Assembly (NCBI GenBank): GCA_000002445.1
Contig: CP000071.1
Location: 512,001-576,000 of the forward strand
Direction of reading: 5' to 3'
Length of the DNA stretch: 64,000 bases
Source of the DNA: Trypanosoma brucei
Lineage: Eukaryota
The number at the start of each line of letters is the position of its first letter. The stretch's first letter is position 1. The position numbers were made by a program. This document shows positions 36,501-39,500 of this stretch, piece after piece.

Positions 36501-39500
36501 TGCGGCTTCGTGGTGAATTGTTATGAAGTGTGCGTAGATAAATAAATTTATTTTTAAAATTTCAAGTGTATTCCCCTCTGTGATACCATCATAATTGTTA
36601 TTTTTTGGCGTTCATTTACTTGCTTTTATTTTTTCCAGAGTGTGAAATCACAGAAGCAAAAATAAGGTAATCAAGTAAGATCTAAATGCGTTTTAAAGAG
36701 CTCTAATTTCTTGGCTTATTCACTTATTCGTTGATATTTTATTGAATAATCCTACATATTTTTGGCAGATGAATCAATTGCTTAATTATATATGTGTTTA
36801 TTTTGCGTTTTTTTTAAATGATATCTTTTATCGTTCCACTTATTTTTGGGGTGAGTGACTTCAGTGACTGACGTTATAAATGAAGAAAAATAAGAGTAGA
36901 ATTAATAATGTCGCGACGTCCTTCTCTTCTCTTTCATCCCACCCTTTTCGTTTTATTAAAAAAAATGAGATGGTAAAATGTCGCACTAGAGCACATGTCA
37001 GGATTGAAAGGAAAAGAAAAACTGTTAACTGCAACGTCGATATTAAAATTAAAGGAAAGGAAAAAGTACATACTAAATCAATAATTAAGATTGTTAGTGT
37101 TAAATGTTATTATGATAAAAGCGAGGCGGATCGTTATTTCAGCGGTGTTGGGCAACGTTAGGAATGACAGAACAAGAGCAATAAAAAAAGGAAGTAGCAG
37201 TGACTTGTCTGTTAGTGTATTTGCGTTCACTTCTGCACACCTCTGCACTTCATCGTTTCCTCTATTTCATTTCTTTATTAATTTTTTTTTCTTTAGATGA
37301 GGAAACCCCTTCGTTTTTTTCTTCTCACTCTCCATTTGGGAGGGGGAGCGGGCGGGTGAAGCGTTATCACAGTTTTGAAACGCACTAAATGCAGTGGTGA
37401 CATCGCGGTTCTACTTGTTTTACCTATTAGTGTATTTGTTTCTTCGCACACTCCTTAATCTCAATCACTTCAGATTACATATGCGACTTGTACCTTTTTC
37501 TTTTTTCATTGTAGAGGATCGTTTCTTCTTTTCTTTGATTGATTGATTGGTTTGCGTTTGTTTGCTTTAATTATGTTTGAACATTTTTCAAATTCAAGAT
37601 TAAAACGGGAAAAGTTGGACCACATGGCGCCGTAACTCAACCACATTACGTCGAGCAACTGAAGAAAATTGTAGCGCGTGATGAATAAATACAAACGACC
37701 AATAATCGGAAGCGTCAGTAACACCTCACGCATGACGCCACTTTGAATGCAATACTAATTATCTGACTCATATCCCCGTTTCCTCATTTTCCTCCTTTTT
37801 GTTTCTATTCCGTTACACCTCCGCTTCGCTCGTGGCATTCTTCCAGTGAGCGCACTTACGATGGATGGTGGAGGAAGAATATGAATGTGCAACACTTGCG
37901 TTCGTTGGCTTCGGATGCAACAACAATGGCTTTACCTCGATGATGTGTATGAGAACAAGCATATGTCCGAGCTGACCACAATTGTGGCACAATGAGAGCA
38001 TTACTCGAGTCCTTGAAAGCTGAGTGGTATCGTACCTTTCTTTCTTTGCTTTAACTTATGATGCAAAGCAAATAAACAGCGGGGGAAACCTCGTCTCAAA
38101 ATGTGATTTTGCGTGAACGAGCGTTTTCAAGCGTCATCCACTGACTCATATCCCCGTTTCCTCATTTTCCTCCTTTTTGTTTCTATTCCGTTACACCTCC
38201 GCTTCGCTCGTGGCATTCTTCCAGTGAGTGCACTTACGATGAACGGTGGAGGAAGAATATAAATGTGCAACACTTGCGTTCATTGGCTTCGGATGCAACA
38301 ACAATGGCTTTACCTCGATGATGTGTATGAGAACAAGCATATGTCCGAGCTGACCACAATTGTGGTACAATGAGAGCATTACTCGAGTCCTTGAAAGCTG
38401 AGTGGTATCGTACCTTTCTTTCTTTGCTTTAACTTATGATGCAAAGCAAATAAACAGCGGGGGAAACCTCGTCTCAAAATGTGATTTTGCGTGAACGAGC
38501 GTTTTCAAGCGTCATCCACTGACTCATATCCCCGTTTCCTCATTTTCCTCCTTTTTGTTTCTATTCCGTTACACCTCCGCTTCGCTCGTGGCATTCTTCC
38601 AGTGAGCGCACTTACGATGGATGGTGGAGGAAGAATATGAATGTGCAACACTTGCATTCATTGGCTTCGGATGCAACAACAATGGCTTTACCTCGATGAT
38701 GTGTATGAGAACAAGCATATGTCCGAGCTGACCACAATTGTGGCACAATGAGAGCATTACTCGAGTCCTTGAAAGCTGAGTGGTATCGTACCTTTCTTTC
38801 TTTGCTTTAACTTATGATGCAAAGCAAATAAACAGCGGGGGAAACCTCGTCTCAAAATGTGATTTTGCGTGAACGACCGTTTTCAAGCGTCATCCACTGA
38901 CTCATATCCCCGTTTCCTCATTTTCCTCCTTTTTGTTTCTATTCCGTTACACCTCCGCTTCGCTCGTGGCATTCTTCCAGTGAGCGCACTTACGATGGAT
39001 GGTGGAGGAAGAATATAAATGTGCACCCTGGCGATGCCGGTCACCTCAACGTGGTGCCAGGGTCCAGTACCCCGTATCATCGGGGGAAGCCAAGAGCCAG
39101 CAGCGTTCCTTTCATGGGGAACACTGCTGTGCTCCGGATACGGCATCATACAGCACAGGGATCAGCAGCGTCTTGTTGGGACACCGTTTTTCATTTGTCG
39201 GTCCCTGGGCACGTGCCAGCGTGCCATCAGCAGTATCATCCGCACTAAGATGCTGCTGTCCGGTGATGTGGAACTCCAAAAAAGGATTGCTAATTGACAT
39301 CTTTTGGAGTTCCGGGGTGGGAGGCTTCTCGCCCCATCTGCTGTATTCCGTTCATCTGCGGAAATACAACAAGAGTTATAGAGGGTGTGTTAGGATGAAT
39401 AAAAAAAGGGAGGCTCTGCCACAGTTGCCAGACCGATAGCATCTCAGGGCTCTACGGTGATGGCTGATGGCCGCGCCAGTGGGGGGAAACTCTCACGAAG

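What the first reader, a model, noticed from the sequence alone, without database searches (positions are those of the whole stretch)
39026..39407. ingi/RIME-type retroposon fragment inserted into, and truncating, the putative snoRNA array
The fourth 378-bp unit stops mid-unit at 39025 (…gaatataaatgtgca). The next base begins a sequence I recognise as the conserved 5' end of trypanosome non-LTR retroposons (CCCTGGCG…GGTCCAGTACCCCGTATCATCGGGGGAAGCCAAGAGCCAGCAGC). The segment ends ~380 bp later in an A-rich tail (gaataaaaaaa). The 378-bp array does not resume after it. This is consistent with a RIME-like insertion, or a recombination, that removed the distal part of the cluster. A retroposon landing in an snoRNA cluster at a transcription-termination zone is unusual enough to document.
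Basis: partly seen in the sequence, partly recalled or inferred. Interest (0 to 1): 0.55.

Follow-up and report, generated by a model that had tools for sequence, protein, structure and literature searches.

The report
Full-length RIME retroposon beside snoRNA array
The sequence is an ordinary, complete 0.5-kb RIME mobile element of Trypanosoma brucei, not a 380-bp fragment; it abuts a small-nucleolar-RNA gene array, is old, is shared by several subspecies, and shows no sign of a new function.

Summary

The end coordinate and the word "fragment" are wrong. The A-run at 39401-39407 is an internal feature found in every ingi/RIME 3' region I aligned. The element runs on to 39514, followed by an A/T-rich tail at 39515-39529. 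That makes a complete ~504-bp RIME: the 5' 248 bp and the 3' ~235-260 bp of ingi, with the 4.7-kb coding core missing.

- **No target-site duplication.** The best match is 6/12, which is chance level. A control RIME has 12/12.
- **The array never resumes downstream.**
- **The left flank resembles a real insertion site.** It matches the published Tbingi/RIME insertion-site motif at 6/10 positions (2.2% of window positions do as well).
- **The junction is old.** The identical array|RIME junction is present in T. b. gambiense DAL972 and T. b. equiperdum. Array copy number varies (5.3 vs 3.3 units) independently of the element.

Most likely history: an old insertion into the array, then recombination with another ingi/RIME, or a deletion, replaced the right flank.

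No function is conserved: the orthologous copies have lost the Pr77 promoter core. This is a known kind of element and of low interest.

The parts
37678..37766 (+). Single-copy candidate C/D-box snoRNA just upstream of the array. Its D box (CTGA, 37763) coincides with the left edge of the array.
   Evidence: C box GTGATGA at 37678 and D box CTGA at 37763, 89 nt apart. Identified from the sequence only; there is no Rfam family for it.
37763..39025 (+). 378-bp tandem array (TB8Cs2 snoRNA cluster): three full units (37763, 38141, 38519) plus a 129-bp partial fourth unit (38897-39025). Each full unit carries an H/ACA snoRNA (TB8Cs2H1) and two candidate C/D snoRNAs. The partial unit carries only H1.
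   Evidence: TRF; blastn of the unit against the window; Rfam RF01549 four times, 78-81.5 bits against a gathering score of 40; C/D box pairs at 37940/38020 and 38058/38141 and their repeats.
38951..39012 (+). Last, intact copy of the TB8Cs2H1 H/ACA snoRNA. It ends 13 nt before the retroposon.
   Evidence: Rfam, 81.5 bits, full model 1-65.
38992..39025 (+). Left flank in the register of the Tbingi/TbRIME (ingi4) insertion-site motif: 22 nt upstream of the nick plus the 12 nt that would be the 5' TSD copy (TATAAATGTGCA, 39014-39025).
   Evidence: 6 of 10 specified motif positions match. Only 2.2% of all positions in the window reach 6 or more. Controls: a RIME with a perfect TSD scores 5/10 and an ingi scores 7/10. 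Motif taken from PMC3820030.
39026..39104 (+). 79-bp signature (Pr77) shared by all ingi-clade retroposons. It includes the downstream promoter element CGTG at 39050-39053.
   Evidence: Unique in the window, 0 expected. One difference (39041) from the ingi and RIME references. DPE described in PMC4748587.
39026..39273 (+). 5' half of the RIME, matching the first 248 bp of ingi. It encodes the first ~83 codons of the ingi ORF up to the start of the 2A-like motif (…MLLSGDVE), after which the ingi reading frame is lost.
   Evidence: 97.6% identity over 248 bp to the T. b. equiperdum ingi L001:9993-10240. That element encodes endonuclease, RT and RNase H. P0002 reads …SGDVEENPGP where the window reads …SGDVELQKRIAN*.
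39042..39145 (+). Probable gene-conversion tract in the TREU927 lineage. At 8 sites this copy has the family-consensus state while the orthologous gambiense and equiperdum copies share a different state.
   Evidence: The 5' half is closer to non-orthologous copies (98.0%, 97.6%) than to its own orthologues (95.6%, 95.2%). There is 1 shared locus-specific difference in the 5' half, against ten positions beyond 39300 (six in the 3' body, four in the tail).
39274..39279 (+). RIME internal deletion junction (CTCCAA), between the ingi 5' and 3' homology blocks.
   Evidence: ingi positions 1-248 align to 39026-39273 and positions 5010-5268 align to 39280-39540. The same junction type is seen in the gambiense chr1 RIME.
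39280..39514 (+). 3' half of the RIME, matching the last ~235-260 bp of ingi. It ends in the canonical CACGAAGGCACGAAGAAAATT.
   Evidence: 89-92% identity to ingi 3' ends and 88.5% to the gambiense chr1 RIME.
39401..39407 (+).
   Evidence: Present at the same position in all four aligned ingi/RIME 3' regions, ~108 nt before the true end.
39515..39529 (+). A/T-rich 3' tail (AAATTAAATTAATTA). It is impure compared with the GC/CC + A7-10 tails of the reference copies.
   Evidence: Alignment A2 and flank print-out.

Best explanation
The feature is a complete TbRIME, the 0.5-kb non-autonomous partner of the ingi LINE. It lies on the + strand at 39026-39529, at the distal edge of the TB8Cs2 snoRNA array. 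That array sits at the end of the + strand polycistron, in a convergent strand-switch region of T. brucei chromosome 8. The window's kinase is identical to the TREU927 protein.

Shown:
- Its identity, boundaries and completeness.
- The absence of a target-site duplication.
- The failure of the array to resume.
- The presence of the identical junction in other T. brucei subspecies.

Inferred history:
1. An ingi-encoded endonuclease/reverse transcriptase inserted a RIME or ingi by target-primed reverse transcription into a unit of an array that already existed, just after an H/ACA snoRNA. The site resembles the family's preferred target.
2. Before the T. brucei subspecies diverged, homologous recombination with a second ingi/RIME in the same orientation replaced everything to the right of the element. 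This deleted the 3' TSD copy, the rest of that unit and any further units.
3. Since then the array has changed only in whole units, by unequal exchange. The element has decayed, apart from a gene-conversion patch in the TREU927 5' half.

The element has no demonstrated role. All three snoRNA species remain in three or more complete copies.
For: - **Identity.** The 79-bp signature is unique in the window. The element is colinear with both ends of a bona fide ingi that encodes EN, RT and RNase H, with the 4.7-kb core absent. It is 91% identical over its whole length to a gambiense RIME flanked by a perfect 12/12 TSD. GC is 54.4%, against 53.8% reported for RIMEs (PMC2323293).
- **No TSD.** The best match is 6/12, against a null median of 6-7.
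- **No resumption of the array**.
- **The left flank looks like a genuine target.** It matches 6/10 motif positions, P(>=6) = 0.022 across the window.
- **Age.** The junction is identical in DAL972 and IVM-t1, with 2-5% sequence divergence and a different array copy number, so these are independent data.
- **This copy does exchange sequence with other family members.** Eight consensus-state sites cluster at 39042-39145.
- **The strand-switch region is a synteny breakpoint** relative to T. vivax and T. melophagium.
Against: - No genome lacking the element, and no outgroup syntenic locus with the snoRNA cluster, could be obtained. The pre-insertion state is therefore inferred, not seen.
- The insertion-site motif is degenerate. 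The bona fide control scores only 5/10, and a single 6/10 match is modest evidence.
- Only three reference elements were available, so a chimeric origin of the two halves could not be tested against subfamilies.
- The geometry of a 3.34-copy array cannot by itself say which end was cut.
Confidence: 0.55

Rival explanations
1. A single retrotransposition event that itself deleted target DNA. The first-strand nick and priming occurred at the present right flank. The second-strand break occurred upstream, inside the array at 39025. The intervening DNA was lost and no TSD was made. This is known for human L1 (from my own knowledge).
For: It explains an intact full-length element with a tail but no TSD using one event. 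The 12 nt after the canonical end (TTAAATTAATTA) resemble the AT-rich TSD of the control RIME (TTTAATTATTTA).
Against: The left flank would not be expected to match the endonuclease recognition motif, yet it matches 6/10 (2.2% tail). I did not find insertion-coupled deletions described for ingi/RIME in the papers read.
Confidence: 0.22
2. Nothing was removed. The array always ended with an extra 129-bp H1 segment (H1-C/D-C/D-H1 as the ancestral 1.34-copy state). The RIME simply sits at its natural end, and its TSD was lost by local mutation or a small deletion.
For: A 3.34-copy array can be maintained by unequal exchange between two H1 segments. Both boundaries are fixed while the copy number varies.
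Against: At roughly 5% divergence a 12-bp TSD should still be recognisable (10 or more of 12), but the best match is 6/12. The 12 nt left of the element are array sequence that in every other unit continues as ACACTTGC…, and nothing like that follows the tail.
Confidence: 0.1
3. One reading: a ~380-bp truncated ingi/RIME/SIDER-like fragment ending in a poly(A) tail at 39407.
For: There is an A7 run at 39401-39407.
Against: Homology to RIME and to the ingi 3' end continues uninterrupted for another ~110 bp to the canonical terminus. The A-run is conserved inside all the copies.
Confidence: 0.01
4. The RIME has been co-opted. Its Pr77 (promoter / HDV-like ribozyme) would define the 3' end of the snoRNA precursor or the boundary of the polycistron.
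For: Pr77 is reported to act as an internal promoter and as a ribozyme that cleaves just upstream of the element (PMC4035085; PMC4748587). The element is in sense orientation directly after the last snoRNA, and the junction is conserved among subspecies.
Against: The orthologous gambiense and equiperdum copies have two 1-nt deletions and several substitutions inside Pr77. These include loss of the essential DPE (CGTG becomes CG-AG, covering the G28A change shown to impair the promoter). The element diverges 4.5-5.5% between orthologues, against ~2% for the flanks, so there is no purifying selection.
Confidence: 0.03

Closest known systems
TbRIME (ribosomal inserted mobile element), the non-autonomous partner of Tbingi, ingi4 subclade
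   Same: It has the 79-bp 5' signature. It is the 5' ~250 bp plus the 3' ~250 bp of ingi with the core deleted. It is ~0.5 kb, 54% GC, has an A-rich tail, has no EN/RT coding capacity, and shows the same internal deletion junction as a gambiense RIME.
   Different: It lacks the 12-bp TSD. Its tail is impure (AAATTAAATTAATTA) and lacks the GC/CC dinucleotide that precedes the A-run in the references. Its 3' half differs by 8-12% from the three references, which also differ from each other by 5-13%.
Tbingi (5.25-kb autonomous LINE)
   Same: The two ends are shared: 97.6% identity at the 5' end and 89-92% at the 3' end.
   Different: There is no 4.7-kb core. No endonuclease, RT or RNase H homology occurs anywhere in the window, whereas all three are present in the reference ingi.
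TbSIDER1 / TbSIDER2 (short degenerate retroposons)
   Same: It is short, non-coding and starts with the 79-bp signature.
   Different: TSIDER1 is ~570 bp and shares nothing with ingi beyond the signature (PMC3820030). This element is colinear with ingi along its whole length.
L1Tc/NARTc of T. cruzi
   Same: Same clade, the same Pr77 hallmark, and the same autonomous/non-autonomous pairing (PMC2323293, PMC4035085).
   Different: NARTc is a 0.25-kb 3'-deleted derivative of L1Tc and uses a different insertion motif (ingi6). It was not compared by sequence here.

Membership tests
TbRIME | 79-bp ingi-clade signature at the 5' end | tested here: met
   39026-39104. One difference from the ingi and RIME references. 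Unique in the window.
TbRIME | Colinear with the first ~250 bp and the last ~250 bp of ingi, with the 4.7-kb core absent | tested here: met
   ingi 1-248 aligns to 39026-39273, and ingi 5010-5268 aligns to 39280-39540. The reference is confirmed as an ingi by its EN, RT and RNase H domains.
TbRIME | Length about 0.5 kb | tested here: met
   489-bp body plus a 15-nt tail gives 504 bp. The published size is 0.5 kb (PMC2323293).
TbRIME | A-rich 3' tail after the canonical terminus | tested here: met
   AAATTAAATTAATTA follows …GAAGAAAATT. It is A/T-rich rather than pure poly(A).
TbRIME | 12-bp target-site duplication (a hallmark of an unrearranged insertion, not of sequence-family membership) | tested here: not met
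   The best match is 6/12, at the null median. The control RIME gives 12/12. A bona fide ingi also lacks one (8/12).
TbRIME | ingi4 insertion-site motif upstream (AxxxxxxxTxxxGTxGGxTxxx^xTxTxxTxxxxx) | tested here: inconclusive
   6/10 positions match, a 2.2% tail in the window. Controls score 5/10 and 7/10.
TbRIME | Mobilised in trans by the ingi machinery | not testable with these tools
   This would need a retrotransposition assay.
TSIDER1 / TbSIDER | No similarity to ingi beyond the 5' signature; ~570 bp; 11-18% divergence | tested here: not met
   Homology to ingi covers the whole element.
Tbingi / DIRE | ~5-kb element with (degenerate) EN/RT coding sequence | tested here: not met
   tblastn with the ingi ORF pieces finds only the RIME ends in the window. 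There are no Pfam hits in the 39.5-46.2 kb gap.
HDV-like ribozyme (Pr77/L1TcRz type) | Nested double-pseudoknot fold with self-cleavage upstream of +1 | not tested
   No Rfam family matched at E<=1. The pseudoknot was not modelled. Activity requires an experiment.

The most novel reading that the evidence does not exclude
The RIME at the end of the snoRNA array has been co-opted. Its Pr77 ribozyme/promoter would cut read-through transcripts exactly at 39025|39026. That would define the 3' end of the snoRNA precursor, or the boundary of the polycistron, in TREU927. In that strain a gene-conversion patch has restored a consensus Pr77.
Probability: 0.03. Interest if true: 0.5.

Novelty: already known. 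Interest (0 to 1): 0.12.

Why it matters
It matters little beyond annotation. The useful results are as follows.
- The boundaries are corrected to 39026-39529, and the element is a complete RIME.
- The copy is old, fixed across T. brucei subspecies and rearranged (no TSD).
- The snoRNA cluster keeps at least three complete copies of each gene, so no loss of function is expected.

The locus is a small, clean example of three processes already known for these elements: site-preferential insertion, ectopic recombination or gene conversion between dispersed copies, and residence at strand-switch regions and synteny breaks.

Tried and rejected
- **Exact-protein look-ups failed.** Look-ups of the two flanking window genes found nothing, and neither did the TREU927 protein itself. 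The TREU927 assembly seems not to be in the contig index. Synteny was reached through the 90%-cluster members instead.
- **TSIDER1/TbSIDER** was considered because of the apparent 380-bp size. I rejected it once homology to ingi was shown along the whole element.
- **A degenerate ingi (DIRE) next to the RIME** was sought with tblastn of ingi ORF pieces and with Pfam on the longest ORFs of the 39.5-46.2 kb gap. Nothing was found.
- **Array remnants downstream** were sought with word-size-7 blastn. None were found.
- **Outgroups did not help.**
  - The T. vivax syntenic locus has no Rfam snoRNA hit and different downstream genes.
  - T. melophagium has a different tandem array with no snoRNA hit.
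  - T. congolense has no contig on record.
  - Neither available outgroup gives an empty site.
- **A 25-nt imperfect inverted repeat** between the RIME interior and the first bases beyond the tail was considered as a trace of an inverted second element. I rejected it as probably chance: the seed is a 9-mer, about 0.6 such matches are expected, and the match does not extend in blastn.
- **TB8Cs2H1 in the paper library:** no hits.
- **tRNA genes in the window:** none.

Full report
**What is in the sequence.**
TRF reports one array in 34-44 kb: period 378 bp, 37763-39025, 3.3 copies, 98% matches. Rfam places a complete TB8Cs2H1 H/ACA snoRNA in each of the four units, at 37817, 38195, 38573 and 38951 (78-81.5 bits, gathering score 40). 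Box searches show two C/D-type candidates in each full unit, plus a single-copy C/D candidate just upstream whose D box forms the left edge of the array. The fourth unit stops after 129 bp, 13 nt beyond the last H1. The base after it (39026) starts the 79-bp ingi-clade signature. So the start coordinate and the recognition of the signature are correct.

**Where the element really ends.**
A protein search with the short ORF that runs through the element returned only T. brucei-group proteins, and their loci gave reference elements.
- L002 is a T. b. gambiense chr1 RIME with a perfect 12/12 TSD (TTTAATTATTTA).
- L001 is a 5.27-kb T. b. equiperdum ingi that encodes endonuclease, reverse transcriptase and RNase H.

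The window element aligns with the RIME from 39025 to 39531 (91% over 521 columns). It aligns with ingi positions 1-248 at 39026-39273 (97.6%) and with ingi positions 5010-5268 at 39280-39540 (89%). The canonical terminus …CACGAAGGCACGAAGAAAATT ends at 39514, and an A/T-rich tail AAATTAAATTAATTA follows at 39515-39529.

The element is therefore a complete ~504-bp RIME, not a 380-bp fragment. Its GC content is 54.4%, against 44.9% for the array and a published 53.8% for RIMEs (PMC2323293). Its reading frame keeps the first ~83 ingi codons up to …MLLSGDVE and then leaves the ingi frame at the RIME deletion junction, whereas ingi continues …ENPGP. TSIDER1/TbSIDER is excluded, because those elements share only the signature with ingi (PMC3820030).

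**Flanks.**
- There is no TSD. The 12 nt left of the element (TATAAATGTGCA) match no 12-mer in 39500-39560 better than 6/12, which is at the median of the null distribution. Shifting the start by up to 4 nt either way does not help.
- The array unit does not resume anywhere downstream.
- No other ingi or DIRE sequence is in the window, and nothing in the 6.7-kb gap to the next gene has a Pfam hit.
- The left flank, read in the register of the published Tbingi/TbRIME insertion motif (AxxxxxxxTxxxGTxGGxTxxx^xTxTxxTxxxxx; PMC3820030), matches 6 of 10 specified positions. Only 2.2% of window positions reach that score. The two bona fide controls score 5 and 7.

The left junction therefore looks like a real endonuclease target, while the right flank is not the original one.

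**Other genomes.**
The window's 592-aa kinase (46245-48023, minus strand) is identical to the TREU927 protein XP_847000.1. The snoRNA families carry chromosome-8 names. The window is therefore T. b. brucei TREU927 chr8 or an identical strain. Syntenic loci were obtained for three genomes.
- **T. b. gambiense DAL972 (L004) and T. b. equiperdum IVM-t1 (L005).** Both carry the same array|RIME junction base for base and the same RIME-to-right-flank junction.
- **T. equiperdum OVI (L007).** The contig breaks inside the RIME 3' part but shares the right junction.
- **Array size.** It is 5.3 units (six H1) in gambiense and 3.3 units (four H1) in equiperdum and in the window, with the same two boundaries.

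So the insertion and the loss of the right-hand target sequence predate the divergence of these lineages. Copy-number change since then is unrelated to the RIME.

**Evolution of the copy.**
Orthologous RIME copies differ by 4.5-5.5%, while the flanks differ by about 2%. The excess lies at 39042-39145. At eight sites there the window has the family-consensus state and the gambiense and equiperdum copies share another state. The window's 5' half is closer to non-orthologous elements (98.0%, 97.6%) than to its own orthologues (95.6%, 95.2%). Only one locus-specific difference (39041) is shared by all three orthologues in the 5' half, against ten positions beyond 39300, six in the 3' body and four in the tail. 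The simplest reading is a gene-conversion patch from another ingi/RIME in the TREU927 lineage.

The orthologous copies have lost the Pr77 downstream promoter element (CGTG at 39050-39053 becomes CG-AG, which includes the G28A change that impairs the promoter; PMC4748587). They also carry a second 1-nt deletion within Pr77. Selection is therefore not maintaining this copy as a promoter or ribozyme.

**Most likely history.**
- **Shown:** a complete RIME with no TSD, a truncated array, and a junction fixed across subspecies.
- **Inferred:** a RIME or ingi inserted by target-primed reverse transcription into a unit of an array that already existed. Recombination with a second ingi/RIME in the same orientation later replaced the right flank. 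This removed the 3' TSD, the rest of the unit and any distal units.
- **Main rival:** a single insertion event that deleted target DNA. That model does not predict the motif match on the left flank.
- **Lesser rival:** the array always ended with the extra H1 segment. That leaves the missing TSD unexplained.

The strand-switch region is also a synteny breakpoint. In T. vivax and T. melophagium, gene order matches only on the kinase side. This fits a rearrangement-prone site but does not show which arrangement is ancestral.

**Context and novelty.**
The element lies between + strand genes that end at 36434 and - strand genes that start at about 46245, which is a convergent strand-switch region. 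Published work describes strand-switch regions as accumulation sites for these retroposons (PMC4748587). It also describes ingi/RIME transcripts and convergent-region transcripts as silenced by RNAi and RBP33 (PMC3447711; PMC4162612). RIME copies number about 70 or more per genome, with a median 4% divergence from consensus (PMC2323293). A RIME next to a snoRNA cluster in such a region is an ordinary member of a well-described family, so I rate it as already known and of low interest. The one speculative reading left open, co-option of Pr77 as a processing or boundary element, is disfavoured by the decay of Pr77 in the orthologues.

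Noticed in passing
window 39042-39145: The window's RIME has family-consensus bases at 8 clustered sites where the orthologous gambiense and equiperdum copies share different bases. This probably reflects a gene-conversion tract from another ingi/RIME in the TREU927 lineage. It also restores, or retains, the Pr77 DPE (CGTG) that the orthologues lack.
   Followed up: partly
window 21363-25256: A tandem repeat of 649-bp period, six copies at 99% identity, lies between the ORF ending at 21165 and the first transporter gene. 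Its content was not characterised, and there is no Rfam hit at gathering score.
   Followed up: no
window 25022-36434: Five tandem genes for MFS/Nodulin-like transporters (587-594 aa) with a 2193-bp period. They are the last protein-coding genes of the + strand polycistron before the snoRNA array.
   Followed up: partly
window 1208-1277: A second H/ACA snoRNA family, TB8Cs4H2 (91.8 bits), lies near the left end of the window.
   Followed up: no
window 37678-37766: A single-copy candidate C/D snoRNA (C box at 37678, D box at 37763). Its D box coincides exactly with the left boundary of the 378-bp array, and the D box of the second C/D candidate of each unit occupies the same place at every unit junction. 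This could be microhomology at the origin of the array.
   Followed up: partly
window 39378-39402 and 39527-39551: An imperfect inverted repeat (19/25) between the interior of the RIME and the first bases beyond its tail. It rests on a 9-mer seed of the kind expected by chance and does not extend.
   Followed up: partly
window 39270-39281 and 39302-39313: A perfect 12-nt inverted repeat (GGAACTCCAAAA / TTTTGGAGTTCC) flanks the RIME internal deletion junction. It is imperfect in the orthologous copies and in the other RIME copies.
   Followed up: no
L008 (T. vivax) 11611-21611; L010 (T. melophagium) 12469-18343: Gene order matches the window only on the kinase side. Beyond the kinase, T. vivax continues with co-directional genes (including RRP4). 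T. melophagium has a convergent tandem array of ~743-bp period, then a tRNA synthetase gene. The T. brucei strand-switch region is therefore a synteny breakpoint.
   Followed up: partly
L001 9317-9548 and 9993-15260: The T. b. equiperdum chr8 ingi used as a reference also lacks a TSD (8/12). An inverted ingi-like 3' end lies 445 bp upstream of it. This is another rearranged retroposon cluster.
   Followed up: no
window 4817-17731: A very long ORF (4304 aa) on the + strand. It was not examined.
   Followed up: no
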